A stretch of 64,000 nt of DNA from Acidobacteriota bacterium (GCA_035506515.1 DATJPG010000042.1:11235-75234); one strand, 5' to 3'. Shown: positions 3,436 to 23,456, counted from the stretch's first letter. The notes: generated by a model not told the origin, from the sequence alone. Translations and numbers: made by a program.

Positions 3436-3438
3436 GGC

Positions 3439-5253: not shown

Positions 5254-5271
5254 CAGTGTGGAAAAGAGCCT

Positions 5272-5988: not shown

Positions 5989-6111
5989 GACCAAACCCGC
6001 CTTTCGCCTGCTGCACTTATAAGGGATAGCCCGTGGCGCTTGCACACCAATGCACTTGCGCCACAGGCAAAAAGCACTGCCAGCATCGAAAATGACATGC
6101 AGAAACGGTTG

Positions 6112-6600: not shown

Positions 6601-6668
6601 TTCTTATTCTCCTTTTTGTAAGACCGCGCCCGGCCTGATCTTTCTGTGGGACGGGCGCGGAAATCATT

Positions 6669-9124: not shown

Positions 9125-10480
9125 ATGAACCAACTCCAGCCGGTGATATGGACGAAGGGCACGCTTCTCGGTCCTCAACATCTCCAGACGCAAGACCGGT
9201 TTATCGAGAGCTCACTCCAATTTCGGGTACAGTCCCTGATATCGAATCCGTGGGGTTTTTTGAAGCTGCAGGTGAAGCAGGAAGCGCTTGCGGCAGGGGA
9301 ATTTGCCCTTTCGGAAGCATCGGGAATCTTTCCTGACGGGCTCCTGTTCGATTTTCCGGCATCGGAACAGGCTCCTCCCTCGATCCCGTTAGGTGATGCT
9401 TTCGGGCCCGACCAGAATTCTGTGGATCTTTACCTGGCGATTCCCAACTACCGCCAAGCCGGCCTGAACGTTTCCATCGCTCAGCAAAAAGCGGATACGC
9501 GGTATTTGGCCGATGTGGTTTCGGTACGCGATGAAAACTCCGGGAAGGCAGAAAAGCCCGTGCAGGTGGCGCGCAAAAACTTCCGGTTCCTGACCGCAAG
9601 CGACTCGCGCCAGGAATGTTCGGCTATGTGCGTGGCCCGCGTCTGCAAGAGCGATGCCGGCGTTCTGCAGTTGGATCCGCAATACGTTCCCCCGTTGCTG
9701 GATTTTGCTGCGAGCGACTATCTATGCGCCATCGCCCGGCGCCTGGTCGAAATTCTGGCCGCCAAGAGCAGTATTCTCGCCGGAGTGCGGCGGCAGAAAA
9801 ATCTCAGCCTGGCGGATTTCGGAACCGCGGACATCGCACAGTTCTGGTTGCTGTACACGGTCAACAGCCACTTCCCCGAATTCAATCATCTGTTCGAGAC
9901 ACGCCACGGTCACCCGGAACGCCTGTATGCAGCCATGCTCTCTCTGGCTGGCTGCCTGACGACCTTTTCGCCCAAAGTCAGTCCGCGCGATCTGCCTGCC
10001 TACGTGCACGATGATCTCTCCGGCTGTTTTGGATCCCTGGATGAAACCGTGCGGACCCTTCTGGAGACGGTGGTCCCGAGCAACTTCGTCTCGCTTCCTC
10101 TCAAGCTGGTTCAGCCGTCGATTTACGCGACCGCACTGGCCGAGGACAAATATCTTTCGGGAACCCGCCTGTATCTCGCCGTCTCCGCGGACATGAACCA
10201 GGCAGACCTGATCTCGAAGGTGCCCTACCTGGTGAAGGTATGCTCGGGGAACCACATCGAACACCTCGTGCGCCAGGCCTTGCCCGGTGCAGCGTTGACG
10301 CACGTGGCGAAGCCGCCCGGCGCCATCCCGGTAAAGCTGAATCATCAATATTTCAGCATCAATCAATCCGGGGTAGCCTGGGAAGCGGTTGTCAGAGCGC
10401 GGAATCTTGCGGTTTATGTTCCCGGGGATTTTCCCTCTCCCCAGCTGGAGCTCATCGTTTTATTGCCTGAGGCGGTTTGA
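9125..10480 (+). CDS. tssK: T6SS baseplate protein TssK (ImpJ/VasE), copy 1
   Basis: 451 aa. The N-terminus VIWTKGTLLGPQHLQTQDRF is a TssK hallmark. It is divergent from the tssB operon across an AT-rich 440-bp intergenic region. Confidence 0.88.
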   Translation: MNQLQPVIWTKGTLLGPQHLQTQDRFIESSLQFRVQSLISNPWGFLKLQVKQEALAAGEFALSEASGIFPDGLLFDFPASEQAPPSIPLGDAFGPDQNSVDLYLAIPNYRQAGLNVSIAQQKADTRYLADVVSVRDENSGKAEKPVQVARKNFRFLTASDSRQECSAMCVARVCKSDAGVLQLDPQYVPPLLDFAASDYLCAIARRLVEILAAKSSILAGVRRQKNLSLADFGTADIAQFWLLYTVNSHFPEFNHLFETRHGHPERLYAAMLSLAGCLTTFSPKVSPRDLPAYVHDDLSGCFGSLDETVRTLLETVVPSNFVSLPLKLVQPSIYATALAEDKYLSGTRLYLAVSADMNQADLISKVPYLVKVCSGNHIEHLVRQALPGAALTHVAKPPGAIPVKLNHQYFSINQSGVAWEAVVRARNLAVYVPGDFPSPQLELIVLLPEAV

Positions 10481-11981
10481 ACCGCTCAATTTCAATAAAG
10501 CCCCCGGACACCATCGACGCAGCGGCGCGTGCGAATTCGCCCGGCGGCGTGGCTCCCGGCAGGACATCATTCCGAATTAGCGTCGTCAACGCTTCACGCC
10601 CTGTGATTTTTCCATCGCATAAGGAAATCAGATGCGCCATCCAGGGCTGAATATTGCATTCCATATTAAAAGGGTATTGTGTCTGCAGCTTGTAGGATGA
10701 AGGATTCCAGCAGCCCTTTTCCAGACGATGCATCACAAGAAACTCCGTCTGCGGCGAGGCGTGCAAGGGAGAATCCAGGATAATCCGCTCCAGGTCGTCG
10801 CTGCACGATACGGATTCCCATTTCAATAGCCACTCCCATGGAGATCGCGAGGCGGAAGGAGAGGCTTGGCGCCGGACCGTGAAGATCCTGTGCGTTCCTG
10901 ATCTCTTCTGGATACAGATGAAACCATAGACAAGGGCGGTGATTCCCAGGTTATTAAACAACTGGCGCCACAGCTCGGATTCTTCTCGAGAGCGCATCGT
11001 TTCCCTGTTCTGGCGCTGTGCAAACTCCTGAGGTTCATACTCCCGGCGGGACAGGAACGCGATATCGAAATCCTTCTCTCTGGCGCCGAGCCAATCCCGG
11101 ACACGGTGTTCAAACGATCGTTCTCTACGATCGGTTCCCATCGTGAGCGCCAGGAATCTGCCTCCCTCCTTCAGATGATCGGGCAGCCCTGCCACGATCC
11201 GGCGGGTTATTTCTTCTCCGTCGCTTCCGCCGCTGTAGAAAATCCACTTAGGCTGGAGAGTCGGAACATAGGGCGGGTGGGCGGAGATGAAATCGAATCG
11301 GCAGTTTTCAAATCCTTGATACAGGTCGCTCGTCACAACCTTCACGTTGGAAATGCCATTCAGTTGCCGGTTAAATTCCGCAAATTGGGTGGAGCGGTCT
11401 GCGATGTCGCCAGACCACGCGTGCTGCGCGCTCCCTTTGGCGGCAAGCAAAGCCGCGATCCCCGTGCCCCCGCAAAGGTCGAGAAATTCTCCGCGCGGCT
11501 GTTCGGGCAAGTGGCGGAGGAACAGGCGGGTGTTGGGAAGAAAAGCCGGAAACACGATATCTTCCGCCACCGGCATCGAGGTGCCGTCGTATGTATTCCA
11601 CCGGTCGGAGGCGATGTACAGATCGCCCACAGGATACAGGGCGATGGTGGCATGGTATGCATCAGAGTCGGCGTCCCATCGAAGCAATCCCATACCCTCA
11701 AGAACCGCAATCATTCCGGCATCGAAGAATTCCCGCAGGGTATTCGAATGAACGATTTCGCCTGCCAGAAAAAGGGTTGTAAGAGCATCGGCTGCAGATT
11801 CACAGGCCGGCAGCGGAGGGCGCTGCTTCCGGTCTATCTCGAAGTCTTCGGCGTGTTCGAGGCGAAATCGTCTGCACAAAAACTCGTCGCTGTAATCCAT
11901 CGCTCGCAGAAAATCCCGCAATTCGCAGAACTGCCCCGTCTTCCCTAAAGCTCCTGCGTCGATGACAGAAGGGTACATCAC
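10452..11981 (-). CDS. SAM-dependent amino-methyltransferase, HemK/PrmC-like (LDLCGGTGIAAL motif I; DFISAHPPY motif IV) with an N-terminal extra domain of about 150 aa
   Basis: 509 aa. Motif I and an (N/D/H)PPY-type motif IV are spaced as in protein-glutamine and N6-adenine methyltransferases. It is 6 nt downstream of the repeat-protein gene (coupled). Its 3' end overlaps the tssK copy-1 3' end convergently. Confidence 0.7.
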   Translation of the reverse strand: MMYPSVIDAGALGKTGQFCELRDFLRAMDYSDEFLCRRFRLEHAEDFEIDRKQRPPLPACESAADALTTLFLAGEIVHSNTLREFFDAGMIAVLEGMGLLRWDADSDAYHATIALYPVGDLYIASDRWNTYDGTSMPVAEDIVFPAFLPNTRLFLRHLPEQPRGEFLDLCGGTGIAALLAAKGSAQHAWSGDIADRSTQFAEFNRQLNGISNVKVVTSDLYQGFENCRFDFISAHPPYVPTLQPKWIFYSGGSDGEEITRRIVAGLPDHLKEGGRFLALTMGTDRRERSFEHRVRDWLGAREKDFDIAFLSRREYEPQEFAQRQNRETMRSREESELWRQLFNNLGITALVYGFICIQKRSGTHRIFTVRRQASPSASRSPWEWLLKWESVSCSDDLERIILDSPLHASPQTEFLVMHRLEKGCWNPSSYKLQTQYPFNMECNIQPWMAHLISLCDGKITGREALTTLIRNDVLPGATPPGEFARAAASMVSGGFIEIERFKPPQAIKR

Positions 11982-11987: not shown

Positions 11988-13424
11988 TCACTTCCTCGCT
12001 GTAACCACGATAATGGCGATCACGGCCAGAAGAACCAGGATGACGATGATCAGCACTGGAATCATTTTCGAAGGTTGTTTCGCGGGTACGGGCGTTTCCT
12101 GCATTCGGGTCGGGGCCGGAACCGGCTCTGTTGCCAGTTCCTGCGGGAGCGACTGAGCGCTGAACATGCGCGTGTATTCGCCGGGAGCGCTTGCTGCCGG
12201 CGAAGCCGGGCTTGATTCTGCCAGCGGCGCTACGGGGCCCAGCGGAGGAATTTCAGCCGATGAATCGCCGAAGATCTTCGTAAATTCGCCGGCCGCCGGT
12301 GCAAAGGACTGAGGTGGCTTGGATGCGTGGATAGTTTCGCTCTGCTTGGGTGCAGATGCGGAAGATGGCTGGCCGAAGATTCCGGTAAAGGAAGTGGGCG
12401 GAACTGTCGCCCGGTCACCGCTGCCGAAGACGCGCGCGAATTCTCCCTGAGATTCAGGCTTTTGAGGCATAGGCGCCGGTGTAGGAGCCGGAGAGGATGC
12501 CGCGCTGAAAAATCGCGTGAACTCTCCCGGTCCTGATTGCGCCTGCTTAGGCGGCACAGGCGGCGTTGAAGCTTTCGACCCCTGGGGCACAGATTCCCCT
12601 ATGGGAGCGGCGGCCGCCTCAAACACTTGCGTGAATGATCCCGGCGCAGACGGGGCTGGGGTCGGGGCCGGTTGAGGCGTCGGAGGTTTTAATGCTCCGG
12701 GCGCAGGTTCGCCGATTGGAGCGGCGGCAGCCTGGAACATTTGGGTGAAGGATCCCGGCGCAGATGGAGCCGGGGCCGGGGCCGGCTGAGGCGTCGGAGG
12801 CTTTGATGCTTCGGGCGCAGGTTCGCCGATTGGAGCGGGGGCAGCCTGGAACATTTGAGTAAACGATCCCGGCCTAGATTCAACCGGGGGCGGTGCAGGA
12901 GCGATTGGCAATTCGGCCGCAGGCTCACCGATCGGGGCCGCAGGAGCTTGAAACATTTGCGTAAAAGAACCGGCCGCGCTGTGCGCGGGTGTTTGTTCCT
13001 CGGCATGCATGTCCACAGCACCGGATTCCCTCGATACCTTCGGGGATCCTGCCGGCGCGGATTTGAGTTCGGCGGGAACGTGCCACACGCCGGCTTTCGT
13101 AAACTCCCCCGGTTTGTGAGCCGGCGCTTCCGACGCCGCGGCATGGAATCGCGACAGGCGGGTTTTGAGTTCCGCAAGATTGCCGACCGGTTCTGTCACA
13201 ACATAGATTGTTCCGCGATTATCGCCGGTATCAATCAGTTCCGGAAACTGCGCTCGGTCGACTTCCCGCAGCTTGGCGAGAAAATCTTGCTGAGCGTGGG
13301 CTTGCTCACCCACGAAGAGAAACACGGTGACTTTTTTCCCGGTTGCAATTTCCTTGGCGACGAATGTCTTGGCGCCGTCCTCCCCGGCAAGCTCGAGAAG
13401 CTGATATCTTTCGTCGAAACTCAT
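11988..13424 (-). CDS. Tail-anchored membrane protein with a degenerate kinase N-lobe-like N-terminal domain, about 9 Pro/Ala-rich repeats (GSFTQMFQ / GEFTxxF) and a C-terminal TM helix
   Basis: The start is taken at the Met with a GGAG RBS; the ORF track extends to 13475. The N-terminus YQLLELAGEDGAKTFVAKEIATGKKVTV aligns by eye to the kinase glycine-loop/VAIK region of the nearby STK, but the catalytic Lys is missing. Residues about 120-450 are low-complexity repeats. The C-terminus MIPVLIIVILVLLAVIAIIVVTARK is a single TM span. Confidence 0.6.
   Translation of the reverse strand: MSFDERYQLLELAGEDGAKTFVAKEIATGKKVTVFLFVGEQAHAQQDFLAKLREVDRAQFPELIDTGDNRGTIYVVTEPVGNLAELKTRLSRFHAAASEAPAHKPGEFTKAGVWHVPAELKSAPAGSPKVSRESGAVDMHAEEQTPAHSAAGSFTQMFQAPAAPIGEPAAELPIAPAPPPVESRPGSFTQMFQAAPAPIGEPAPEASKPPTPQPAPAPAPSAPGSFTQMFQAAAAPIGEPAPGALKPPTPQPAPTPAPSAPGSFTQVFEAAAAPIGESVPQGSKASTPPVPPKQAQSGPGEFTRFFSAASSPAPTPAPMPQKPESQGEFARVFGSGDRATVPPTSFTGIFGQPSSASAPKQSETIHASKPPQSFAPAAGEFTKIFGDSSAEIPPLGPVAPLAESSPASPAASAPGEYTRMFSAQSLPQELATEPVPAPTRMQETPVPAKQPSKMIPVLIIVILVLLAVIAIIVVTARK
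12125..13115. repeat. Intragenic tandem repeat array of about 114-bp period (about 9 units; the central units are near-identical)
   Basis: Near-identical DNA units are visible, for example around 12640-12760 versus 12755-12875, each encoding GSFTQMFQAAAAPIGEPAP...PTPQPAP. Confidence 0.75.
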
Positions 13425-13622: not shown

Positions 13623-14975
13623 ATGAAGCACCTGTCGAGAGTTGTATGGTCCGAAGGCATGTACCTGGCTCCGCATCATTTTCAGGTGCAGAGCCGGTAT
13701 TTCGAAGATTCCATTCAATTCGCCGCTTCGGCGCTTTGTTTTGCCCCGTACGGATTTGTCGGCTTCGGATTGGATGTCGAGGCTCTGCGCAACGGTACGC
13801 TGTCCCTTCTGCATGCTCGCGGAATTCTTCCCGACGGGCTGTCGTTTCAAATGCCCGACTGCGATGCCCTGCCGGCGGCGCGAAACATCGCCGATCTGTT
13901 TCCCCCGACGCGAGACAAAGTCACGGTGCTGCTTGCAATTCCCGAGCACAAATGGAATGGGGTCAATTGCGCGCAGTCCGCAGACGATAGCGGCTGGGTG
14001 CGTTACAGCGCCGAGTCTCAAACGATACCGGACGAAACCACGGGCCGCGACGAAAAGCCGGTTCCACTGGGCCGGAAAAATTTTTCTCTGCTGCTCGACA
14101 CCGAAGCGCAGGAAGGCATTCTGGCGTTGCCGGTGGCCGTTATCATGCGGGATGGGACGGGGCATTTCATTTTCGATCCCGATTTCATACCGCCTCTGAC
14201 GAGCATCGCTGCAAGCGATCGTCTGATGAGCGTCCTCAAGCGCCTCATTGAAATCCTGGATGACAAGAGCGCGAGCCTTTCCAAAGGCAGCGCGGCGGCG
14301 GCGCGCACCTGGGCCGAGTATTCCACGCGCGATGTCGCACAGTTCTGGCTGCTGCACACGGTCAATTCCGCCCTTGCGCCGTTGCGCGATATGTATGCGG
14401 GACGTCACGTGCACCCGGAGCAACTGTTCGTTCAGATGCTTCGCCTTGCCGGCGCGCTGTGCACCTTCTCGATCGATTCGCACCCGCGCGATCTGCCGCT
14501 CTACAATCACAGCAACCTGGCCGGATGCTTCGGCACGCTGGATCAGCACATCCGCACAAACCTGGAGACGGTTGTGCCGACCAACGTGATCTCGGTACCG
14601 CTGCAGAAATCCGCCGATTATTTCTATGAAGGTCCGATCACGGATCAACGGTGTCTCGATCGCGCGCGCTGGATTCTGGAAATCCGCAGCTCCACCGGCG
14701 AGGTGGAGATCATTGCCAAAGCGCCCCAGTTGGTGAAAATCTGCTCCAAGCTATTTGTCCCTAAACTGGTCGAAAGAGCCTTGCCCGGCATGGGCCTGAC
14801 CCATTTGCCCACTCCGCCTACCGCCATATCCGCACGGGTGGATGCCCAATACTTCAGCATCAATCGTGCCGGCCCATGCTGGGAGCACATTGTGCAAACA
14901 CGGCAGGTGGGAATCTACGTCCCCGGGGAGTTGCCGAATCCCGAACTTGAGCTGTTGATCATCCTCGAATCCTGA
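13623..14975 (+). CDS. tssK: T6SS baseplate protein TssK (ImpJ/VasE), copy 2
   Basis: From the internal Met, MKHLSRVVWSEGMYLAPHHFQVQSRYFED is the TssK N-terminal signature; the ORF track starts at 13515. It is about 40% identical by eye to copy 1. It is followed at 16 nt by tssL. Confidence 0.85.
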   Translation: MKHLSRVVWSEGMYLAPHHFQVQSRYFEDSIQFAASALCFAPYGFVGFGLDVEALRNGTLSLLHARGILPDGLSFQMPDCDALPAARNIADLFPPTRDKVTVLLAIPEHKWNGVNCAQSADDSGWVRYSAESQTIPDETTGRDEKPVPLGRKNFSLLLDTEAQEGILALPVAVIMRDGTGHFIFDPDFIPPLTSIAASDRLMSVLKRLIEILDDKSASLSKGSAAAARTWAEYSTRDVAQFWLLHTVNSALAPLRDMYAGRHVHPEQLFVQMLRLAGALCTFSIDSHPRDLPLYNHSNLAGCFGTLDQHIRTNLETVVPTNVISVPLQKSADYFYEGPITDQRCLDRARWILEIRSSTGEVEIIAKAPQLVKICSKLFVPKLVERALPGMGLTHLPTPPTAISARVDAQYFSINRAGPCWEHIVQTRQVGIYVPGELPNPELELLIILES

Positions 14976-14990
14976 TAAGGAGACTCAGAC

Positions 14991-15704
14991 ATGATATCCA
15001 ATCCCGGTTCTCCGGCTTTGCTCCGGCGACACGAGAACCTCGCGCTTGTCTTTCAAGAAATCCTGGTCGGGAGTGAGCGTCTGCGCACCGGCCGCCAGAC
15101 AGTATCCGATCCTGCCGTTTTCAGGCAGCAGGTGATTGACGCACTCAAGACAGCGGACCAGCAGGCTCGCAACCAGGGGTATGCCGCCGAGGACATCAAG
15201 CAGGCCATTTTTGCGGTCGTGGCATTTGTGGATGAATCCGTTCTGAATCTGCGCCTGCCTGTTTTTGCCGATTGGCCTCGAAGGCCTCTGCAGGAGGAAT
15301 TGTTCGGGCATCACATAGCCGGCGAGATATTTTTCAAAAATCTGCAGGAGCTTTTGGGGAAAAACGATTCGCAGGATCTTGCCGACCTCCTGGAAGTATA
15401 TCTGACGTGCCTGTTGCTCGGTTTTGCGGGCCGCTACAGCCTGGGAGAGCGCGGCGAATTGAGGGCGATCACAAACGCCACGAATGAAAAGATTCAACGG
15501 ATTCGCGGGGGTGCATCGCCGCTGTCTCCGGCGTGGGAGCTTCCGCCGGAAGCTCCGCAAAAAACGGGAACGGATCCGCTGGTCCGTAAGATCGGGATTG
15601 CTGCCGCAGCCTGTTTCGGATTGGCGTTGATTCTTTTTATCGTGTACAAGCTGGTTCTCGATTCGGGCTTATCCAGCCTGGGCGAGCTGGCGGGAAAGCT
15701 ATAG
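14991..15704 (+). CDS. tssL: T6SS membrane complex protein TssL (DotU/ImpK family)
   Basis: 237 aa with a DotU-like cytoplasmic domain and a C-terminal TM helix (IGIAAAACFGLALILFIVY). It lies directly upstream of tssM. Confidence 0.85.
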   Translation: MISNPGSPALLRRHENLALVFQEILVGSERLRTGRQTVSDPAVFRQQVIDALKTADQQARNQGYAAEDIKQAIFAVVAFVDESVLNLRLPVFADWPRRPLQEELFGHHIAGEIFFKNLQELLGKNDSQDLADLLEVYLTCLLLGFAGRYSLGERGELRAITNATNEKIQRIRGGASPLSPAWELPPEAPQKTGTDPLVRKIGIAAAACFGLALILFIVYKLVLDSGLSSLGELAGKL

Positions 15705-15716
15705 GGAGATGCCGCT

Positions 15717-18700
15717 ATGATGATCTATCTGGGAGCAGGCGCTGCGCTGGTCGGGTATCTGATTATAGCCTGGATTGTGGGGAGCTTGTTGCACCTGGAC
15801 AGTTCGCGATTCAACACGCTATTTGCCATCCTCACCGTGCTTGGCATTTCTGCCACCGCCGCCTTCCTCTGGTTCTGGAAAAAATCGCACGCGAACGCTT
15901 CCGCCGAGGGGAGCCAGGGCACAGGCCCCATGGGGAAGGATGACGAAATCGATGCGCTTGTGCGCGAAGCGGAAAACCGTTTGGCAGCGTCGAACCTGGC
16001 AAAAGGCGCGAAGCTGAATAATCTGCCTCTGGTTTTTGTGATCGGGGATGCGGGATCGACGAAGACCAGCACGATCCTTCATTCCGGGCTCGACCCGGAA
16101 CTGCTGGCCGGAAGCGTATACCAGGATACGACCGTCGTGCCGACGCGCCTCGCCAATATCTGGTTCGCGCGCGGCATGATTTTCGTGGAGGCCGGGGGGA
16201 AACTGCTGGCCGAGCCTCAACGCTGGAAGCATCTGCTGCAGCGGCTGCGCCCGGCAAGGCTCCTTTCCGCCATGCGGGGAGAACAGGCGCCGCGCGCCGC
16301 GATCGTGTGCCTAGATGCCGAGACTTTCGTCCGCGCCGGGGCGGCGGACGCTCTGACAATGGCGTCCAGAAACCTGCAGAAACGGCTCTCCGAGCTTTCG
16401 GAAGAATTCGGCATCAGCTTCCCCGTCTATGTGCTGTTTACCAAAATGAACCGGCTGGCGTTTTTCGAGGACTTTGTGCGCGACCTGACGGCGGATGAAG
16501 CCGGACACGTGCTCGGGGCAACGGTCCCGCTGCCCGCGCGCGAGGGCGGCGTCTACGCGGAAGAAGAAGGAAAACGGCTGAGCGCCGCGTTCGACGCAAT
16601 ATTCTATTCGCTGGCGGACCACCGCGTCCTGTTCCTGCCGCGGGAAAACGATTTACAGAAAGTTCCAAACGCATACGAGTTCCCGCGCGAGTTCCGCAAG
16701 TTGCGCAACGGCCTTGTACAGTTCCTCGTGGACGTATGCCGGCCAAGCCAGCTGCGCGCCAGCCCTTTTTTGAGAGGATTTTATTTTTCCGGCGTTCGCC
16801 CCATTCTCGTGCAGGATGCTCCCGTGGCGACGCCGCGTCCGTCCGCCGCGCAACGGTCCCCATTTGAAGCGGCGGGAAGCGCGACGGGATTTTTCCAGAC
16901 CGGGGCGGCTCCTGCGGCCCCTGCTCCAATCGCGGCGGCCGCGGGAGGCACGCGCAAGGTGCCGCAGTGGCTGTTTTTAAGCCACCTTTTCGCGGACGTG
17001 ATTCTGCGCGACAAGGCGGCTCTGAGCGCCAGCGGCAGCAGCACCAAAGCGAGCACGCTGCAGCGAATCCTGCTGGCATCGGCGGCGGCGCTATTCCTGA
17101 TCTTCGCCGTAGGCTTCACCGTCTCGTTCTTCGGCAACCGCACGCTCGAAAACGAAGTGATGGAGGCGGCACGCGGAATTCCGCCGGGTGAGGCCGGAGG
17201 CATGAATCTGCCCACGCAGGATGCGCTGCAGAAGCTCGAAACGCTTCGGGCGTCGCTGGTCAAGCTGACCGCCTATGAGGAAGACGGCGCTCCCTTCAGG
17301 CTGCGATGGTTTCTATACGCCGGAACGGACCTGTATCCGGCGGTGCGCCAACTGTACTACACGCGGTTCAACCAGCTTCTGTTCCTTCAGACGCAGGGGA
17401 AAATGCTCGCGTCGCTGCGCATGCTTGCGATCCCGCCCGCGTCCACTGACGATTATGCAACAACCTATGACACGTTGAAGGCCTATCTGATCACGACGTC
17501 GGAATACAAGCGCAGCACAAAATGGCTTTCGCCGGTCCTGATAAACCGGTGGGCGGCCGGCCGCCAGGTCGACAGCATCCTGCCGTTGGCCACCAGACAA
17601 TTCGATTTCTTTGCGGAAGACCTCGTGCGCGGCAATCCGTTCGGGGATAAGAACGATTTCGCTGCCATCGACCGTGCGCGGCTTCATTTGTCCAAGTTTT
17701 CCGGAATCGAGCAGATCTACCAGTTCATGATCTCCGACGCTTCGCGTCGCGCAAAGAGCATCAACTTCAACGAACAGTATCCGGGTTCTGCGGATGTGGT
17801 GGTCAACAACGTCGAGATTCCGGGGGCATTTACCAGAGCGGGCTGGGCGGTCATGCAGGATAACATGGCCCGCGCGGATAAATTTTTCGGTGGCGAACGC
17901 TGGGTCCTGGGAGATTACGCCTCGGCAAAACCCGAAGCAGCCAAGGTGGAAGAAGAACTGCGCAACCGGTATGTTCTGGATTACATCGGCAAATGGCGCG
18001 ATTTCATGAACAACACGAAAGTCGTGCGCTTCGCCGGATTGAAGGACGCTGTCAAAAAGCTCAATACGCTTTCCGGCGCACAAACCCCCCTGATGGCGCT
18101 TTTCTGGGTAGCCACTCAGAACACGGCCGTGAGCTCACAAAAACTGACGGATATTTTCGACTCCGTCCAAAAGGTGGTACCGCCTCCGGCGACTACGGTG
18201 CAATACGTGTGGCCGACGAACCAGGAATACATGGGATCGCTGGCTTCTCTGCAAACGGCCGTCAGCCAGGTGGCCGAGACGGCTGCGACTCCGGGACCAC
18301 CGGATCCCAACCGCGGCCTGCCTGTGCGGCAAAGCGCGGATAACGCCCGAAATGTCCTCAAGAAGCTCGAGTACACATTTAAGATCGATCCGGAATCGCA
18401 CATGGAAACGGTGACATCCAAGCTCCTGGAGGCTCCGATCGATTACGCCGACGCGCTTACCAAAGGCATGGGTGCCGGCGAAATCAACAACAAAGCCGCT
18501 GTCTTTTGCAGGTCTTTCGCGACAATTACGAACAAGTTTCCCTTCAATCCGTCAGCCACGGCCGAAGTTACGCTTCAGGAGCTGAATGGCATGTTCCGCC
18601 CGCACGAAGGGAAATTGTGGACCTTTTACAACGAAACGCTCCAGCCCCTGATGACAAAACAGGGGCCGAGGTATGAAGCGAATTCCACTAGCGGCATCAA

Positions 18701-19196
18701 GCTGACAAAGACCTTCCTCGACTTCTTTAACGCGGCGGCCCGCTTCTCCGAAGCAGTGTATCCCAACGGTGCTAAGGACCCGAGTTTTCATTATTCACTG
18801 GCGGCACAACGCGCCGATCAGATCCGGGAAATGACTGTGACGATAGACGGACAGACGACTCGGGGAACCGGTTCCAAGGAACACACATGGACTGCATCGC
18901 CCTCGCAGGACGTGCAGATCAGCGCGAAACTTTCCGGGGGATCGGATTTCGAATTTCAGAACCGGCAGGGAATGTGGGCCCTGTTCCGTTTCTTCGCCGA
19001 CGCCGACCGCTCAACCCAGATCGGCAATGCGAATTCTCTCGAGTGGATCGTGCGGCAAGGCAGAGAAGGCCGTCCCGTGTCGGTCGGCGGCAAGGAATTG
19101 ACCTACCGCTTTATCGTAGACACGGGCGGCGCCGAAGCCATCTACCAGAAAAACTTTCTCATCAGCATGCGCTGCGTTTCCTCGGCCGCGCAGTGA
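15717..19196 (+). CDS. tssM: T6SS membrane complex protein TssM (IcmF/ImpL/VasK)
   Basis: 1159 aa with N-terminal TM helices, a Walker-A-like VIGDAGSTKTS and IcmF-family length. It is 13 nt after tssL. Confidence 0.9.
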   Translation: MMIYLGAGAALVGYLIIAWIVGSLLHLDSSRFNTLFAILTVLGISATAAFLWFWKKSHANASAEGSQGTGPMGKDDEIDALVREAENRLAASNLAKGAKLNNLPLVFVIGDAGSTKTSTILHSGLDPELLAGSVYQDTTVVPTRLANIWFARGMIFVEAGGKLLAEPQRWKHLLQRLRPARLLSAMRGEQAPRAAIVCLDAETFVRAGAADALTMASRNLQKRLSELSEEFGISFPVYVLFTKMNRLAFFEDFVRDLTADEAGHVLGATVPLPAREGGVYAEEEGKRLSAAFDAIFYSLADHRVLFLPRENDLQKVPNAYEFPREFRKLRNGLVQFLVDVCRPSQLRASPFLRGFYFSGVRPILVQDAPVATPRPSAAQRSPFEAAGSATGFFQTGAAPAAPAPIAAAAGGTRKVPQWLFLSHLFADVILRDKAALSASGSSTKASTLQRILLASAAALFLIFAVGFTVSFFGNRTLENEVMEAARGIPPGEAGGMNLPTQDALQKLETLRASLVKLTAYEEDGAPFRLRWFLYAGTDLYPAVRQLYYTRFNQLLFLQTQGKMLASLRMLAIPPASTDDYATTYDTLKAYLITTSEYKRSTKWLSPVLINRWAAGRQVDSILPLATRQFDFFAEDLVRGNPFGDKNDFAAIDRARLHLSKFSGIEQIYQFMISDASRRAKSINFNEQYPGSADVVVNNVEIPGAFTRAGWAVMQDNMARADKFFGGERWVLGDYASAKPEAAKVEEELRNRYVLDYIGKWRDFMNNTKVVRFAGLKDAVKKLNTLSGAQTPLMALFWVATQNTAVSSQKLTDIFDSVQKVVPPPATTVQYVWPTNQEYMGSLASLQTAVSQVAETAATPGPPDPNRGLPVRQSADNARNVLKKLEYTFKIDPESHMETVTSKLLEAPIDYADALTKGMGAGEINNKAAVFCRSFATITNKFPFNPSATAEVTLQELNGMFRPHEGKLWTFYNETLQPLMTKQGPRYEANSTSGIKLTKTFLDFFNAAARFSEAVYPNGAKDPSFHYSLAAQRADQIREMTVTIDGQTTRGTGSKEHTWTASPSQDVQISAKLSGGSDFEFQNRQGMWALFRFFADADRSTQIGNANSLEWIVRQGREGRPVSVGGKELTYRFIVDTGGAEAIYQKNFLISMRCVSSAAQ

Positions 19197-19243
19197 GGGA
19201 AAAAAGCAGAATACAGTAGACAGGAGACAGAATTCAGGAGGCG

Positions 19244-20710
19244 ATGAATTCTGTTTCCCTGAATGCTATGGATATTCGAATGCCTGATTCCTATGACGAA
19301 GTTCGGTATCCAAGCCTTCCTTTAAAACAGAGCCATCCTGCGTTCATCGCGGCGCTGTCCACAATTGCCGGCCTGGAGCTCCCTCCGGTAGAACGGTGGA
19401 GAGTGCTGGAGATCGCCTGCGGCAACGGATCCAATATTATTCCACTGGCATTCGACTATCCCGAAGGACATTTTGTCGGCGTCGATCGAGCTTTAAATCC
19501 GATCCGGGCAGGTCGGGCTCTGGCCGACAAATTGAAGCTCTCCAATATAGAATTGCTGAACGCAGATTTGCTTCAATGGCAGCCGGAGGGCGAATTCGAT
19601 TACGTCATCGCCCACGGCATCTTCTCCTGGGTTCCTGCGGAAGGCCGGGAAAAAATACTCGAGATCTGCGGCCGCGCCCTGAAGCCATCGGGGGTCGCAT
19701 TTATCAGCTATAACGCACTTCCCGGCTGCCATTTCCGCAGGTTTGCCTGGGATTTCCTCCGCTTCCACGTGCGGCGCATCCCGGACCCTGCGGCACGCAT
19801 GAAAGGAGCTCGAGATCTTGCCGGAATGATCGTGAACGCGCCGGCCGGCGAAGACCCCCTTCCGCTTGCCATTCGCAAGGAAATGACTACTATCCTCAAT
19901 AAGGATGAAACGGTTCTGTATCACGACGATCTTTCCGAAATAAACGAGCCATTCTACCTGATGGATTTCGTATCGCAGGCCGGGAGCCATGGACTTCAAT
20001 ACCTGGGTGATGCGGATCCGCAGCGCGACAATGTTCAAGACCTTCCGCTGCGGGCTGAGGACTGGATAGAGTCGCGGCAATACGGTGATTTTCTGGCCAG
20101 AAGGCGATTTCGCGAAACTCTGCTCTGCAGGAGTGAAATCGTTTTGGACCGAAAGCTCTCGCTGGATCGCTTTAGAAATTTGTTTGCTGAGTCGCGGGTA
20201 TCGCCGGGTGAGGTGCAAAAGGACGGGCAGCAGCAGTTTAACATCCCCAAGTCGGGTAATCTGACGACCAATCACCCCTTGGCCAAGAATCTGTTGTGCC
20301 GATTGGCATCGTTGTGGCCGGGATCAATGCGACTCTCCGAATTCCCTCTGGACGACTATCCGGAGGATGCAGTTGCAGGATTGTTTATGCAGCTTGTTCA
20401 GGCTGGGGCCCTCGATGTAAGAAGCCATCCGCCAAAAATCCCTGCAGAAATCGGAGATCGCCCGAAGGCGAGCGCCTTGGCCCAGGCGCAGATCGGTGAA
20501 GGGTACAGCACCGTGACCAATCAGCGGCACAGCAATATCGCGATCACCGACGACACGAGCCGCAGGATTCTTACACTCCTCGACGGAACCCGGAACAGGC
20601 AGGAGCTCGCGGGCGAACTGACGGCCGGCGGAATGGATCCGCAAACGATCCATAGCGCGATCGAGGGCGCTCTTGCAAGCCTGCATCACGTGAGCCTGCT
20701 GATTGGATGA
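19244..20710 (+). CDS. Class I SAM-dependent methyltransferase with a long C-terminal extension (resembles the 'methyltransferase regulatory domain' type)
   Basis: 488 aa. VLEIACGNGSN is a GxGxG SAM-binding motif, and an acidic DYVIAHGIFSW motif II-like segment follows. It is 48 nt after tssM, same strand. Confidence 0.65.
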   Translation: MNSVSLNAMDIRMPDSYDEVRYPSLPLKQSHPAFIAALSTIAGLELPPVERWRVLEIACGNGSNIIPLAFDYPEGHFVGVDRALNPIRAGRALADKLKLSNIELLNADLLQWQPEGEFDYVIAHGIFSWVPAEGREKILEICGRALKPSGVAFISYNALPGCHFRRFAWDFLRFHVRRIPDPAARMKGARDLAGMIVNAPAGEDPLPLAIRKEMTTILNKDETVLYHDDLSEINEPFYLMDFVSQAGSHGLQYLGDADPQRDNVQDLPLRAEDWIESRQYGDFLARRRFRETLLCRSEIVLDRKLSLDRFRNLFAESRVSPGEVQKDGQQQFNIPKSGNLTTNHPLAKNLLCRLASLWPGSMRLSEFPLDDYPEDAVAGLFMQLVQAGALDVRSHPPKIPAEIGDRPKASALAQAQIGEGYSTVTNQRHSNIAITDDTSRRILTLLDGTRNRQELAGELTAGGMDPQTIHSAIEGALASLHHVSLLIG

Positions 20711-20847
20711 GATGAGCGATGGTCACCATAAGCCGAATTTATAAGAAGGAAGGTGATTTCTGCCGGCCCGGCTCTTATGATTTCTTTCAGGGTGATGACA
20801 CATGTCACGGAATAAGCCTATAATTGCAGCAAGATAGGAGGCCTCTT

Positions 20848-21816
20848 ATGCGCCGCTCCATTTTGACGATTTTCCTGTTATGCATATTGGTTCCATTGGC
20901 GAATGCCCAGACAAAACCGCGCGTGGCCGTCATGAATTTCGACTATGCGACCGTGCGCGACATGAGCTCTTCGATATTCGGCACGGACGTGGATATTGGA
21001 AAAGGCATCACGGATATGCTGGTTGACAAGCTGGTCAATGGCGGCGCCTTCTCCGTAATCGAGCGCAAGGCTCTGGACAGCATTATCGCGGAGCAGAATC
21101 TCTCGAACAGTGACCGTTTCGATAACAACTCCGCGGCAAAAATCGGGCGGCTGCTTGGAGTGGACGCGATCATTACCGGCAGCATCACGCAATTCGGCCG
21201 TGACGATAAAAACACGAATATAGGCGGCGGAGCGGTCGGTGGTATTTCGCGCCGCTTCGGCATCGGCGGGGTCGGCAAAAAAGAATCCAAGGCAGTCGTG
21301 GCAATCACGGCGCGCATTATCAATACGGACACAGCTGAAATTCTGGTGTCCACAACAGGAAATGGCGAATCCAAGCGGTCCGGTACGATGTTGCTTGGCG
21401 CTGGAGGCAGCGCCGAAACCGCTGCGGGCGGTGTCGTGGACATGAGAAGCAGCAACTTCGCCAACACAATTCTCGGAGAGGCGGTTGGGCAAGCCGTCAC
21501 CTCCGTCGCCACGCAGCTGCAAGATAAAGCCGGCCAGCTGCCCACGCGCGTCGTGAAAGTCGACGGCCTCGTGGCGGATGCGACGGGCGGCGAACTGGTG
21601 CTCAATGTCGGCAGCAAAGCGGGAATCAAAGTCGGCGATCACCTGAAAGTCGTACGCACCGGGCGCGAGATCCGCGACCCTTCTACCGGTAAGGTGATCC
21701 GGCGCACGGAGGAAGCGCTCGGTGAAGTGGTCATCACGGAGGTCGACGAACAGTCAGCAGTTGGCAAGTACAACGGGACCAATCCGGCAAAAGTAGGCGA
21801 CCGGGTACACAACTAG
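20848..21816 (+). CDS. CsgG/HfaB-family (curli-type secretion channel-like) exported protein
   Basis: GGAGG RBS. Signal peptide MRRSILTIFLLCILVPLANA. The segments VAVMNFDYAT...ERKALDSIIAEQNLS...GVDAIITGSIT resemble CsgG-family conserved blocks. The STK gene follows at 12 nt. Confidence 0.6.
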   Translation: MRRSILTIFLLCILVPLANAQTKPRVAVMNFDYATVRDMSSSIFGTDVDIGKGITDMLVDKLVNGGAFSVIERKALDSIIAEQNLSNSDRFDNNSAAKIGRLLGVDAIITGSITQFGRDDKNTNIGGGAVGGISRRFGIGGVGKKESKAVVAITARIINTDTAEILVSTTGNGESKRSGTMLLGAGGSAETAAGGVVDMRSSNFANTILGEAVGQAVTSVATQLQDKAGQLPTRVVKVDGLVADATGGELVLNVGSKAGIKVGDHLKVVRTGREIRDPSTGKVIRRTEEALGEVVITEVDEQSAVGKYNGTNPAKVGDRVHN

Positions 21817-21827
21817 GCGGGGGGCGG

Positions 21828-23456
21828 ATGAGCTACGAAATCGGTTCTCGCGTTGGCGATTACGAAATTCTTCAGATCCTTGGCGCGGGCGGCATGGGGC
21901 GAGTCTACAAAGTCCGCAACGTCCTGTCCGATCGTGTAGAAGCCATGAAAGTATTGCTTCCGGATCTCGAGGGCAATCCCGGGTTGGCCGACCGGTTCAT
22001 GCGCGAAATCAAAGTGCAGGCAAGTCTGGATCATCCGAACATCGCCGCGCTGCACACGGCGCTGCGCATCGAAAATCAACTGATGATGCTCATGGAATAT
22101 GTGGACGGAGTCACGCTGGACAAGATGATGGAAGCGGGTCCGGTCCCTATCGACAAGGCGGTGGACTACATCGCGCAAGTACTCTCGGCGCTGGCGTACG
22201 CGCACGCGCGCGGCGTCGTACACCGCGACCTGAAGCCGGCGAACATGATGATCATGCCCAACGGGGTGGTCAAACTGATGGACTTCGGAATCGCGAAGAT
22301 GACGGCAGACCGCAAGCTCACGCAAACGGGCAGCACCGTCGGATCGCTGTACTACATGTCTCCGGAGCAGATCAAAGGCGCCGTGGATCTCGACCCGCGA
22401 TCCGACTTGTATTCCCTCGGGGTTTCGCTCTATGAAGTTGTCACGGGCGCACGTCCCTTTCAGGGGGACAGCGAATATTCGATCATGGCGGCGCACTTGC
22501 AGAAGAACCCTCCTCCGCCGATCGAAATATCGCCCAACCTGCCGAACGGATTGAACGAAATAATTCTGCAGGCGCTCCAGAAAGAGCCGGCGAAGCGTTT
22601 CCAGACGGCCGATGCATTCCGGAACGCGCTGCTCTACGTGTGCAAGCAGCCGCTGTCCGCGGCTCCGGTGGCGGCCGCGGCCGTGCCTCCGCCAAAAGCC
22701 GTACAGCCGCAGCCGAATATTCCACCCCCGCCCCCACCGGCAGTGCAACCTGCATCCTCGCACAGGGGCCTATGGATTACCATAGGCGCCGTCATTGTTC
22801 TTGCCGTGATCGCGGTTGTGGCCATGCAAATGCCGATGTTCCACAAGACCGCGGCGGAGACCGCTTCCGCCCAGCCTTCGACGGCAGTTTCGGGCACTGC
22901 AACCCCGTTGCAGGAATCCAGCGCGACTGTTCAACCCCCCCCGACACAAGCTTCTGTCCCGTCCACGACTTCACAGGAGGACGTGGCCGCGCCTGCGCAA
23001 GTTGCATCCGCCCCCGAAGCTCAGTCTCCGCAGACAAAGCCGACCACAAAACCGGCATCCGCCCCGTCCAAAACGGCAAAGCAGATGCAGTCTCCTCTGG
23101 CATCTCAGGCGGTTTCAGGAACCCAGCCGCCGGCTCCGGCGAAATCTGGGGCTGCTCCGGCAACGCCTGTCGAGGATCCGGCAACGGCAGAGCAGCTGAA
23201 GGAAGTTAAAGAGCAGCTGAACCTTCTGAGCATACGCATGGATACGGTTAAAAGCAGCCTGGATTCGCTGCGCAAGCAGCAGGCTACTTCCGGTTTCGGA
23301 CTGCGCGCCGACATGGCGAGTTCCGCCCAGCGGATGGAGTATTATTACAGTCAGACGGACGCGGCTCTGAAAAACCGCGATGCGGCAGCGGCGAAGAAAA
23401 ACCTGGATCTCACGGAACGCGAAGTCACAAAACTGGAGAATTTCCTGGGGAAATAG
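21828..23456 (+). CDS. Transmembrane eukaryotic-like Ser/Thr protein kinase (PpkA-like architecture without a vWA domain)
   Basis: GAGGMGRVYKV, AMKVL, HRDLKPANMM, DFGIAK and SPE motifs are present. Then come a Pro-rich linker, the TM helix LWITIGAVIVLAVIAVVAM, and a Ser/Thr/Pro/Ala-rich exported region with a C-terminal coiled coil. Confidence 0.9.
   Translation: MSYEIGSRVGDYEILQILGAGGMGRVYKVRNVLSDRVEAMKVLLPDLEGNPGLADRFMREIKVQASLDHPNIAALHTALRIENQLMMLMEYVDGVTLDKMMEAGPVPIDKAVDYIAQVLSALAYAHARGVVHRDLKPANMMIMPNGVVKLMDFGIAKMTADRKLTQTGSTVGSLYYMSPEQIKGAVDLDPRSDLYSLGVSLYEVVTGARPFQGDSEYSIMAAHLQKNPPPPIEISPNLPNGLNEIILQALQKEPAKRFQTADAFRNALLYVCKQPLSAAPVAAAAVPPPKAVQPQPNIPPPPPPAVQPASSHRGLWITIGAVIVLAVIAVVAMQMPMFHKTAAETASAQPSTAVSGTATPLQESSATVQPPPTQASVPSTTSQEDVAAPAQVASAPEAQSPQTKPTTKPASAPSKTAKQMQSPLASQAVSGTQPPAPAKSGAAPATPVEDPATAEQLKEVKEQLNLLSIRMDTVKSSLDSLRKQQATSGFGLRADMASSAQRMEYYYSQTDAALKNRDAAAAKKNLDLTEREVTKLENFLGK

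What the first reader, a model, noticed from the sequence alone, without database searches (positions are those of the whole stretch)
13623..23456. Non-canonical T6SS accessory set: tssKLM operon continues into a SAM-methyltransferase, a CsgG-family exported protein and a TM Ser/Thr kinase, while Fha/PppA/TssJ/ClpV/VgrG are absent from the window
Intergenic gaps of 16, 13, 48, 137 and 12 nt suggest a single transcription unit tssK2-tssL-tssM-methyltransferase-csgG-like-STK. Threonine-phosphorylation T6SS regulation normally pairs PpkA with an FHA protein and the PppA phosphatase. Here only a kinase is present, with an exported Ser/Thr/Pro-rich ectodomain. No lipoprotein TssJ is present. A CsgG-family protein might instead provide the outer-membrane component, which is speculation. 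A second methyltransferase is embedded, so the locus has two methyltransferases in total. clpV/tssH, vgrG and PAAR are not within 64 kb on this side. A terminator-like hairpin follows tssG at 1-78, so the cluster probably ends there.
Basis: partly seen in the sequence, partly recalled or inferred. Interest (0 to 1): 0.6.

Follow-up and report, generated by a model that had tools for sequence, protein, structure and literature searches.

The report
T6SS operon plus CsgG-like/kinase sensor pair
The genes are as described, but this acidobacterial type VI secretion cluster is complete (ClpV and VgrG start just outside the window), and the CsgG-like protein and kinase form a separate two-gene module, widespread in Acidobacteriota, that lies next to secretion clusters in only about a third of species.

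Summary
The gene calls hold: tssK2, tssL, tssM, a methyltransferase, a CsgG-family exported protein and a membrane Ser/Thr kinase, with gaps of 15, 12, 47, 137 and 11 nt.

The "missing" ClpV and VgrG are a window-edge artefact. In 99.8%-identical contigs clpV starts 31 nt beyond position 1, followed by vgrG, a HEAT-repeat gene and a second kinase. The hairpin after tssG is real but lies inside the cluster.

No TssJ-like lipoprotein, FHA protein or PP2C phosphatase is encoded in the cluster or the window.

The CsgG-like gene and its kinase form a conserved pair across Acidobacteriota (at least 579 species). The kinase follows directly, with the same ectodomain, in about 57 of 80 loci. T6SS genes lie within 10 kb in 13 of 42 well-flanked loci, in several arrangements.

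Of 80 related tssM loci, none has the full CsgG-like gene. Of the 59 with enough downstream sequence, 27 have some other membrane kinase directly after tssM.

The methyltransferase is a rickettsial PKMT homologue and is absent in the closest relative.

The most likely reading is an envelope-sensing kinase module docked onto a TssJ-less, FHA-less T6SS. A role for the CsgG-like protein as the outer-membrane part is not supported. Interest is moderate.

The parts
13623..14975 (+). tssK2, the second TssK baseplate paralogue. It is 41% identical to tssK1 at 9125-10480.
   Evidence: Pfam T6SS_VasE 1.2e-127 and TIGR03353. The ATG at 13623 was read. Paralogue comparison.
14991..15704 (+). tssL (DotU family, short form with one C-terminal TM). 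It has no Thr in its first 30 residues.
   Evidence: Pfam DotU 1.8e-47; sequence read.
15717..19196 (+). tssM (IcmF family, 1159 aa).
   Evidence: Pfam IcmF-related_N, IcmF-related, IcmF_helical and IcmF_C. TIGR03348 scores 378.6 bits, just under its 388 cut-off.
19244..20710 (+). MT2, a PKMT-family SAM-dependent protein-lysine methyltransferase homologue. No signal peptide is visible in the sequence.
   Evidence: Pfam Methyltransf_25, MethyTransf_Reg and PKMT_2nd. Full-length match to rickettsial PKMT2 and PKMT1 structures 5doo and 5dnk, E 8e-57 and 9e-55. Present upstream of the CsgG-like gene in 7 of 80 loci and inverted nearby in an eighth (L069); absent in the closest relative L011.
20795..20824 (+). 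Sigma-70-like promoter candidate in the 137-nt gap before the CsgG-like gene.
   Evidence: ATGACA-18-TATAAT, 11 of 12 matches, the best site in 13300-24000. This is a consensus match only.
20848..21816 (+). Exported, non-lipidated CsgG/FlgT-like protein (322 aa): signal peptide ending ...PLANA|QT, a CsgG domain and a FlgT_C-like C-terminal domain.
   Evidence: Pfam CsgG 1.4e-38 and FlgT_C 1e-7. No conserved Cys in the signal peptide across 12 orthologues. PDB profile match to CsgG covers the TM1 hairpin region. The AF2 model (pLDDT 69) matches FlgT 3w1e over its full length at E 2.7e-15, then CsgG 4uv2.
21828..23456 (+). STK-B, a bitopic Hanks-type Ser/Thr kinase: kinase domain 12-265, Pro-rich linker, TM near 318-338, a Ser/Thr/Pro/Ala-rich periplasmic linker of about 110 aa, and a conserved C-terminal helical domain of about 90 aa.
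   Evidence: Pfam Pkinase 3.8e-54. HRDLKPAN, DFG and SPE motifs are visible in the sequence. The C-terminal domain is conserved in the gene directly after the CsgG-like gene in 57 of 80 species loci.
11988..13424 (-). Tail-anchored repeat protein (478 aa), transcribed divergently from tssK2. It has a kinase-N-lobe-like N-domain, seven strict G-[SE]-[FY]-T-x-x-F heptads in a Pro/Ala-rich region, and a C-terminal TM.
   Evidence: No Pfam, NCBIfam or PDB sequence match. Homologues sit next to tssK2 in 6 genome loci and 31 metagenome loci, with 1-12 strict copies (mostly 3-12) of GEFTRMF-type heptads in the full-length ones. AF2 N-domain model pLDDT 82; all top-50 Foldseek PDB hits are protein-kinase N-lobes at E about 3e-3.
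10452..11981 (-). MT1, an MTS/HemK-like methyltransferase (509 aa, HPPY motif). It recurs in related T6SS clusters.
   Evidence: Pfam MTS 3.9e-13 and weak HemK/PrmC-type NCBIfam matches. MT1-like genes lie beside tssB or tssK1 in nine of the 80 metagenome tssM loci (for example L099, L104, L113, L123, L147) and in L173.
9125..10480 (+). tssK1.
   Evidence: Pfam T6SS_VasE 1.7e-136.
103..8752 (-). Minus-strand T6SS operon: tssB 8153-8752, tssC 6669-8156, hcp 6112-6600, impE/tagJ 5272-6045, tssA 3439-5253, tssE 2947-3435, tssF 1110-2945, tssG 103-1146.
   Evidence: Pfam VipA, VipB, Hcp, ImpE, ImpA_N plus VasJ, gp25, TssF and TssG.
1..102 (-). tssG-clpV intergenic region holding most of a roughly 100-nt perfect hairpin. 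clpV starts 31 nt beyond window position 1.
   Evidence: Intergenic sequence and fold in L007. One arm lies at window 62-83. clpV, vgrG, HEAT-repeat gene and STK-A in L007 and L008.

Best explanation
The region joins two separate things.

(1) tssK2-tssL-tssM is the baseplate and membrane-complex operon of a complete T6SS of Acidobacteriota (class Terriglobia). This type has two TssK paralogues, an MTS-type methyltransferase and a tail-anchored GEFTRMF-repeat protein. It has no TssJ lipoprotein, FHA protein or PP2C phosphatase. ClpV and VgrG are present just outside the window.

(2) Downstream sits a separately conserved envelope module. It consists of an exported, non-lipidated CsgG/FlgT-like protein and a bitopic Ser/Thr kinase whose long periplasmic linker ends in a conserved helical domain. 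In some lineages a PKMT-type protein-lysine methyltransferase precedes the pair.

Shown:
- The pair is inherited as a unit across Terriglobia.
- It sits at either end of, or inside, T6SS clusters in about a third of well-flanked species loci.
- In this lineage it occupies the slot after tssM that related clusters often fill with other membrane kinases (FGE-sulfatase or PEGA ectodomains).

Inferred:
- The CsgG/FlgT-like protein forms a ring at or under the outer membrane.
- That ring is the partner or ligand of the kinase ectodomain.
- The kinase relays envelope state to the cytoplasm and, where linked to a T6SS, modulates its assembly or firing without an FHA adaptor. This would be functionally analogous to TagQRST-PpkA in P. 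aeruginosa.
For: -
- Cluster completeness: near-identical contigs carry clpV, vgrG, a HEAT-repeat gene and STK-A directly past window position 1.
- The pair is a unit. At least 579 species genomes encode the CsgG-like protein. In the best 80 loci a kinase with the same C-terminal ectodomain lies directly downstream in 57. No other neighbour family occurs in more than 9 loci.
- T6SS linkage recurs. In 13 of 42 loci of at least 18 kb, T6SS genes lie within 10 kb. There are at least four layouts: after tssM, after clpV-vgrG, between vgrG and an inverted tssM-L-K2, and before tssK2.
- The slot after tssM is a kinase slot. Of 59 related tssM loci with enough downstream sequence, 27 have a TM kinase there, with FGE-sulfatase, PEGA or no ectodomain.
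- A promoter-like site lies in the 137-nt gap before the CsgG-like gene.
- The fold matches ring-forming periplasmic or outer-membrane proteins, FlgT and CsgG.
- The signal peptide has no lipobox.
Against: - No experiment or co-evolution test links the CsgG-like protein to the kinase ectodomain. Adjacency is the only evidence.
- In 29 of the 42 well-flanked loci no T6SS gene lies within 10 kb, and I could not check whether those genomes have a T6SS elsewhere.
- None of 80 tssM-centred loci carries the full pair, so it is dispensable for this T6SS type.
- The kinase substrate is unknown. Co-occurrence of the repeat protein with a kinase directly after tssM shows no positive association once a detection artefact is corrected.
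- The promoter call is a consensus match in a phylum whose promoters are poorly characterised.
- In relative L011 the CsgG-like gene follows tssM after only 43 nt, so co-transcription occurs at least there.
Confidence: 0.5

Rival explanations
1. The adjacency is incidental. The CsgG/FlgT-like protein and its kinase form a general cell-envelope signalling or assembly module of Terriglobia with no functional tie to T6SS, and they sit next to T6SS clusters only because both lie in variable genomic regions.
For: In 29 of 42 well-flanked loci no T6SS gene lies within 10 kb. None of 80 tssM loci carries the full pair. The pair has its own promoter-like site. The pair's protein sequences are strongly conserved (64-100% identity over the 120 best clusters), which fits a housekeeping role.
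Against: T6SS is by far the commonest neighbour, in 31% of well-flanked loci. My own estimate is that under 1% would be expected if one 30-kb cluster were placed at random in a 6-Mb genome. The pair appears in at least four different positions relative to T6SS genes in different families, which is hard to get from a single inherited accident.
Confidence: 0.3
2. One reading: the CsgG-family protein is the outer-membrane component of this T6SS and replaces the missing TssJ lipoprotein.
For: No TssJ-like lipoprotein is encoded in the cluster. The CsgG-like protein is exported. It keeps segments equivalent in length to the CsgG TM1 and TM2 hairpins and resembles ring formers. It lies directly after tssM here.
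Against: Related tssM loci, which carry no TssJ-type gene beside tssK2-tssL-tssM, lack the CsgG-like gene in 80 of 80 cases. The gene is always partnered with a kinase, not with tssM. Most copies are far from any T6SS. It has no lipid anchor and no similarity to TssJ. From my own knowledge, TssJ-less T6SSs are already known in Agrobacterium and Acinetobacter, so no substitute is required.
Confidence: 0.07
3. The CsgG-like protein is a true outer-membrane secretion channel for an unidentified substrate (curli-like or holdfast-like). The kinase regulates that export, and the PKMT homologue methylates the exported or surface protein as rickettsial PKMTs do with OmpB.
For: The CsgG Pfam score is far above its cut-off (132.7 against 20.8 bits). 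The homology covers the TM1 hairpin. A PKMT homologue lies directly upstream in 7 species loci and inverted nearby in an eighth, four of them without T6SS genes.
Against: No csgA, csgB, csgE or csgF-like gene and no conserved cargo gene lies next to the pair. There is no lipidation signal. The best structural match over the full length is the periplasmic ring protein FlgT rather than CsgG. The PKMT homologue is absent from most loci.
Confidence: 0.1

Closest known systems
Threonine phosphorylation pathway of the P. aeruginosa H1-T6SS (PpkA, PppA, Fha1, with TagQRST upstream)
   Same: A bitopic Hanks-type kinase with a periplasmic domain is encoded inside a T6SS cluster. An exported envelope protein encoded beside it could act upstream, as TagQ and TagR do. 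The comparison with TagQRST rests on my own knowledge of that system.
   Different: No FHA protein and no PP2C phosphatase is encoded in the cluster or window. The kinase ectodomain is a low-complexity linker plus a helical domain, not vWA. The partner is CsgG/FlgT-like, not TagQ or TagR. There are two kinases, one at each end of the cluster.
Agrobacterium tumefaciens PpkA-TssL-Fha regulation and its TssJ-less T6SS (own knowledge)
   Same: A T6SS cluster with a kinase and without a recognisable TssJ.
   Different: Agrobacterium still uses Fha binding to phospho-Thr14 of TssL. Here TssL has no Thr in its first 30 residues and no FHA gene is present.
CsgG curli secretion channel (E. coli; PDB 4uv2, 4uv3)
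   Same: Pfam CsgG domain. Sequence homology runs through the TM1 hairpin segment. A second insert has the length of TM2 and is disordered in the monomer model.
   Different: There is no lipobox cysteine and no curli genes nearby. It has an extra FlgT_C-like C-terminal domain and is always paired with a Ser/Thr kinase.
FlgT, the H-ring protein of the Vibrio flagellar basal body (PDB 3w1e, 8z5n)
   Same: It is the best full-length structural match (Foldseek E 2.7e-15 over 310 columns). Both are exported, and the C-terminal domain is shared (Pfam FlgT_C). That FlgT is non-lipidated and ring-forming rests on my own knowledge.
   Different: Only 14-15% identity. No flagellar genes lie nearby. TM-score is only 0.41-0.44 from a model with pLDDT 69.
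Rickettsial protein-lysine methyltransferases PKMT1 and PKMT2 (PDB 5dnk, 5doo)
   Same: MT2 aligns over nearly its whole length (E 1e-55 to 1e-57) and has the same three-domain Pfam architecture.
   Different: The substrate is unknown and no OmpB-like autotransporter is nearby. The gene is facultative, being absent in the closest relative.

Membership tests
Canonical T6SS-i (13 core components) | TssA, B, C, E, F, G, K, L, M and Hcp are encoded together | tested here: met
   Pfam and NCBIfam hits for all of them in window 103-19196.
Canonical T6SS-i (13 core components) | ClpV/TssH and VgrG/TssI are present | tested here: met
   They are not in the window. In 99.8%-identical contigs L007 and L008, clpV starts 31 nt past window position 1 and vgrG follows.
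Canonical T6SS-i (13 core components) | TssJ outer-membrane lipoprotein | tested here: not met
   No T6SS_TssJ-type hit in any cluster gene. No ORF of at least 60 aa with a lipobox in window 1-23600 or L007 12800-20400. The rest of the genome was not searchable.
T6SS threonine phosphorylation pathway (PpkA-PppA-Fha) | A Hanks-type membrane Ser/Thr kinase inside the cluster | tested here: met
   STK-B at 21828-23456 (Pkinase 3.8e-54) and STK-A in L007.
T6SS threonine phosphorylation pathway (PpkA-PppA-Fha) | An FHA-domain phospho-threonine reader (Fha/TagH) | tested here: not met
   No FHA domain in any of 45 scanned window ORFs, in the extension L007, or in relative L173.
T6SS threonine phosphorylation pathway (PpkA-PppA-Fha) | A PP2C phosphatase (PppA) | tested here: not met
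   No PP2C hit in the same scans. The rest of the genome was not searchable.
CsgG curli channel family | CsgG domain above the Pfam gathering score | tested here: met
   132.7 bits against a cut-off of 20.8. The NCBIfam CsgG equivalog scores only 25.8 against 505, so it is not an orthologue of curli CsgG.
CsgG curli channel family | N-terminal lipidation (lipobox Cys) | tested here: not met
   The signal peptides of 12 orthologues end A-x-A|Q with no conserved Cys.
CsgG curli channel family | Two transmembrane beta-hairpins that form the barrel | tested here: inconclusive
   The TM1-equivalent segment aligns with E. coli CsgG. Residues 121-144 and 180-200 have low pLDDT in the monomer model. 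The segments are Gly-rich and carry RR and KK. No oligomer model was possible.
CsgG curli channel family | Curli partners (csgA, B, E, F) in the neighbourhood | tested here: not met
   No such genes in the window. No conserved neighbour other than the kinase in 80 loci.
FlgT (flagellar H-ring) | Full-length fold similarity, including the C-terminal domain | tested here: met
   Foldseek against 3w1e and 8z5n, E about 3e-15 over 310 columns, TM 0.41-0.44. Pfam FlgT_C 1e-7.
FlgT (flagellar H-ring) | Flagellar gene context (flgO/P, motX/Y, LP-ring genes) | tested here: not met
   No flagellar genes in the window or among recurrent neighbours.
PKMT protein-lysine methyltransferases | SAM-MTase, regulatory and winged-helix domains, with full-length homology to PKMT1/2 | tested here: met
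PKMT protein-lysine methyltransferases | Lysine methylation of an outer-membrane protein substrate | not testable with these tools
   This needs biochemistry or mass spectrometry.

The most novel reading that the evidence does not exclude
Terriglobia T6SSs use an FHA-independent phospho-signalling route. A CsgG/FlgT-like ring at the outer membrane reports envelope state to its dedicated bitopic kinase. The kinases at the cluster ends act on the tail-anchored protein encoded divergently from tssK2. That protein's kinase-N-lobe-like domain would dock on a kinase, and its array of usually 3-12 near-invariant G-E-F-T-R-M-F heptads would serve as a multi-threonine acceptor or scaffold that recruits or licenses the TssK-L-M assembly. 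It would take the place of Fha.
Probability: 0.15. Interest if true: 0.75.

Novelty: new variant of a known kind. Interest (0 to 1): 0.45.

Why it matters
T6SS regulation and architecture are known almost entirely from Proteobacteria. This locus shows that soil Acidobacteriota carry a complete T6SS built differently. It has two TssK paralogues and no TssJ, FHA or PP2C. It has embedded methyltransferases, kinases with interchangeable ectodomains, and an uncharacterised threonine-repeat protein.

The work also uncovers a widespread, unnamed pair: a CsgG/FlgT-like exported protein with a dedicated Ser/Thr kinase. The pair is currently annotated as a curli channel, which is misleading. If the pair senses envelope state, it would be a new input route for bacterial Hanks-type kinases and a handle on how abundant soil bacteria control contact-dependent antagonism.

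The practical lesson for the scan is that absence of core genes near a window edge needs checking against longer contigs.

Tried and rejected
- **Homologue search with the repeat protein's N-domain alone**: it returned one fragment because of the word-index limit. The full-length query worked.
- **Greedy longest-ORF caller on the 80 loci**: it sometimes picked antisense ORFs in this GC-rich DNA. Gene counts therefore rely on tblastn with the window proteins instead.
- **Apparent mutual exclusion of the repeat protein and a kinase after tssM** (Fisher p = 0.003): rejected as a detection artefact. Five "negative" loci carry GEFTRMF motifs just upstream of tssK2. The corrected table shows no association.
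- **Literature searches**: queries for CsgG with T6SS, for acidobacterial T6SS with TssJ or kinases, and for the heptad sequences found nothing on this module.
- **Hairpin after tssG as a repeated element**: there are no other copies in the window, and in the 170 loci held then it occurs only in the four same-strain contigs (L007-L010).
- **MT1 and MT2 as paralogues**: rejected. They share only Rossmann-fold similarity.
- **STK-A and STK-B as recent duplicates**: rejected. They are 30% identical in the kinase domain only and have unrelated ectodomains.
- **Taxonomy of distant CsgG/FlgT-like representatives**: the lookup gave little beyond Candidatus Acidoferrum.

Full report
**Observation**

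| Gene | Coordinates | Main evidence |
|---|---|---|
| tssK2 | 13623-14975 | T6SS_VasE 1e-127 |
| tssL | 14991-15704 | DotU |
| tssM | 15717-19196 | four IcmF domains |
| methyltransferase MT2 | 19244-20710 | Methyltransf_25, MethyTransf_Reg, PKMT_2nd |
| CsgG-family protein | 20848-21816 | CsgG 1e-38 plus FlgT_C |
| Ser/Thr kinase STK-B | 21828-23456 | Pkinase 4e-54 |

The gaps are 15, 12, 47, 137 and 11 nt. The rest of the cluster in the window is:
- minus strand: tssB, tssC, hcp, impE/tagJ, tssA, tssE, tssF and tssG (8752 down to 103);
- plus strand: tssK1 (9125-10480);
- minus strand: an MTS/HemK-like methyltransferase MT1 (10452-11981) and a gene with no family match (11988-13475).

From 23.8 kb onward the window encodes metabolism and housekeeping only. 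I found no FHA, PP2C, TssJ or PAAR there.

**The window edge**

Exact look-up of the window's TssF found metagenome contigs that are 99.8% identical to the window over 12-13 kb and run past position 1. In these contigs tssG is followed after 132 nt by:
- clpV (872 aa), whose ATG lies 31 nt beyond window position 1;
- vgrG (655 aa);
- a HEAT-repeat protein (326 aa);
- a second bitopic Ser/Thr kinase, STK-A (544 aa);
- then thyA and an ECF sigma factor.

It has no U tract, sits just ahead of the clpV ribosome-binding site, and is not repeated elsewhere in the window.

What remains true is that the full cluster of about 31 kb, from kinase to kinase, has no FHA protein, no PP2C and no lipobox-bearing ORF.

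**The CsgG-like protein and its kinase are a module of their own**

The CsgG-like protein belongs to a large family confined, as far as names show, to Acidobacteriota. At least 579 species genomes carry it. There are 288 clusters at 50% identity with E of 1e-30 or better.

In the 80 best species loci:
- A kinase lies directly downstream in about 64.
- Its C-terminal ectodomain (...GLGLRGD..A.QRM.Y...E.AL..GD...AKK.LD.AERE..KLE.FLGR) is recognisably the same as in STK-B in 57.
- No other neighbour family occurs in more than 9 loci.

T6SS genes are the commonest neighbours. They appear in 17 of 80 loci, and in 13 of the 42 loci that have nearly full 10-kb flanks. The layouts differ:
- after tssM (the window, L011-L016, L014, L034, L067);
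- after clpV-vgrG (L040, L043, L050, L052, L059, L062, L063);
- between vgrG and an inverted tssM-L-K2 (L085);
- before tssK2 (L033).

**The reverse survey**

I fetched 80 metagenome loci with a TssM 42-79% identical to the window's. None has the full CsgG-like gene. Only one, L123, has an STK-B orthologue, preceded by a fragment that matches only the C-terminal domain of the CsgG-like protein.

Of the 59 loci with at least 1.5 kb after tssM, 27 have some other membrane Ser/Thr kinase directly downstream. Most have an FGE-sulfatase ectodomain, some have PEGA domains, and some are short tail-anchored kinases.

The recurrent feature of this T6SS type is therefore [quoted passage not shown]. In the window's lineage that slot holds the CsgG-partnered kinase.

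MT2 is not a fixed part of either unit:
- It precedes the CsgG-like gene in 7 of 80 loci and lies inverted nearby in an eighth (L069); four of the seven have no T6SS genes nearby.
- It is missing in the closest relative, L011, where the CsgG-like gene follows tssM after 43 nt.

**What the proteins look like**

*CsgG-like protein.* It has a cleavable signal peptide ending A-x-A|Q with no lipobox cysteine in any of 12 orthologues. A profile of 42 members matches E. coli CsgG through the TM1 hairpin segment.

The AlphaFold model has pLDDT 69. Confidence is low exactly at the two hairpin-equivalent inserts, 121-144 and 180-200. Its best structural matches are the Vibrio H-ring protein FlgT over the full length (E 3e-15) and then CsgG, PelC and LpoB-type folds.

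It is best described as an exported, non-lipidated CsgG/FlgT-like protein. Most of the top matches (FlgT, CsgG, PelC) are ring formers, so it probably forms a ring too. Whether it inserts into the outer membrane is open.

*STK-B.* It has intact catalytic motifs (HRDLKPAN, DFG, SPE) and one TM. A low-complexity periplasmic linker of about 110 residues leads to the conserved helical domain.

*MT2.* It is a full-length homologue of rickettsial PKMT1 and PKMT2 (E 1e-55).

**How it most likely works**

- Shown: the pair is inherited together, and it is recurrently but facultatively linked to T6SS clusters.
- Inferred: the ring-like exported protein is the partner of the kinase ectodomain. The pair then reports envelope state across the inner membrane.
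- Inferred: where it is embedded in a T6SS cluster, it tunes assembly or firing. This is analogous in logic to TagQRST-PpkA of P. aeruginosa (own knowledge), but without Fha or PppA.

A sigma-70-like site (11 of 12 matches) in the 137-nt gap suggests the pair can be transcribed on its own. This is a consensus match only.

I give this reading about 0.5. The incidental-neighbour rival gets about 0.3, and a secretion-channel role about 0.1.

**A neighbouring gene worth attention**

The unassigned gene divergent from tssK2 (478 aa from the ATG at 13424; NCBI calls it hypothetical) belongs to a family found beside tssK2 in 6 genome loci and 31 metagenome loci. Its features are:
- an N-domain of about 100 residues whose AlphaFold model (pLDDT 82) matches only protein-kinase N-lobes among the top 50 PDB hits, at weak E of about 3e-3;
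- a Pro/Ala-rich region with 1-12 (mostly 3-12) near-invariant G-E-F-T-R-[ML]-F heptads, seven strict copies here;
- a C-terminal membrane anchor.

No paper in the library contains the heptad. It could be the missing phospho-acceptor or scaffold of an FHA-less pathway. However, its co-occurrence with a kinase after tssM is neutral once a detection artefact is removed. A distant homologue also lies outside any T6SS. I treat the idea as a hypothesis only.

**Comparison and novelty**

This is a T6SS-i by core gene content, with ClpV and VgrG present. It fails the TssJ test and two of the three tests for the classical threonine phosphorylation pathway. The CsgG-like protein passes the Pfam domain test but fails the lipidation and curli-context tests. 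It resembles FlgT in fold but not in context.

I found no description of the pair or of this cluster type in the searchable literature. I rate it a new variant of a known kind, with moderate interest (0.45). The headline claim about missing core genes is an edge artefact. The conserved CsgG/FlgT-like/kinase pair and the kinase-rich, FHA-less, TssJ-less acidobacterial T6SS are real and uncharacterised.

Noticed in passing
window 11988-13424 (-): A tail-anchored protein with a kinase-N-lobe-like N-domain and an array of near-invariant GEFTRMF-type heptads. It is conserved divergently from tssK2 in about 37 acidobacterial T6SS loci, has no Pfam family and does not appear in the literature library.
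   Followed up: yes
window 12585-12873: The repeat region of that gene varies between near-identical contigs. The gene is 516 aa in contig L002 against 495 aa for the longest ORF in the window, and BLAST shows overlapping repeat alignments there.
   Followed up: partly
window 1-102, continuing outside (L007 12844-12975): A roughly 100-nt perfect hairpin (31-bp stem, dG -75 kcal/mol, z -10.8) lies between tssG and clpV. It has no U tract and sits directly before the clpV ribosome-binding site. In the window and the 170 loci held at that point it occurs only here and in the four same-strain contigs. It may be an RNA processing or stability element inside the operon.
   Followed up: partly
window 9125-10480 and 13623-14975: There are two TssK paralogues (41% identical) in one cluster. 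Both are kept in many related loci, so this is an old duplication and not a local accident.
   Followed up: partly
window 10452-11981 (-): An MTS/HemK-like methyltransferase of about 500 aa with an HPPY motif recurs inside related T6SS clusters, beside tssB or tssK1. A more distant paralogue lies just downstream of the CsgG-like/kinase pair in L012, L013, L016, L025 and L069.
   Followed up: partly
L123 12528-13904; also L104, L119, L127, L145, L166: Several related clusters encode, directly after tssM, a protein of about 458 aa that combines a VipA-like N-terminus with a partial VipB domain (Pfam VipA 7e-13, VipB 3e-47). It looks like a short fused TssB-TssC-like protein.
   Followed up: partly
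L123 15643-15861 (-): In this locus the STK-B orthologue is preceded only by a short region matching residues 250-322 (the FlgT_C-like domain) of the CsgG-like protein.
   Followed up: no
window 23864-37795: Paralogous metabolic genes occur in two sets: CoA-transferase III at 23864-25072 and 34364-35611, and LarA-like lactate racemase at 25062-26351 and 32832-34118. With them are a 2-hydroxyacyl-CoA dehydratase and its activator, a Ldh_2 dehydrogenase and an acyl-CoA synthetase. This looks like a 2-hydroxyacid/CoA-ester pathway island.
   Followed up: no
window 26797-28302 (+): A 501-aa ORF with no Pfam match, conserved in the near-identical contig L001.
   Followed up: no
L007 18649-20283: The second kinase, STK-A, at the vgrG end of the cluster has an unrelated beta-rich C-terminal ectodomain of about 90 aa with no Pfam match. 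That ectodomain is shared with L013 and L016.
   Followed up: partly
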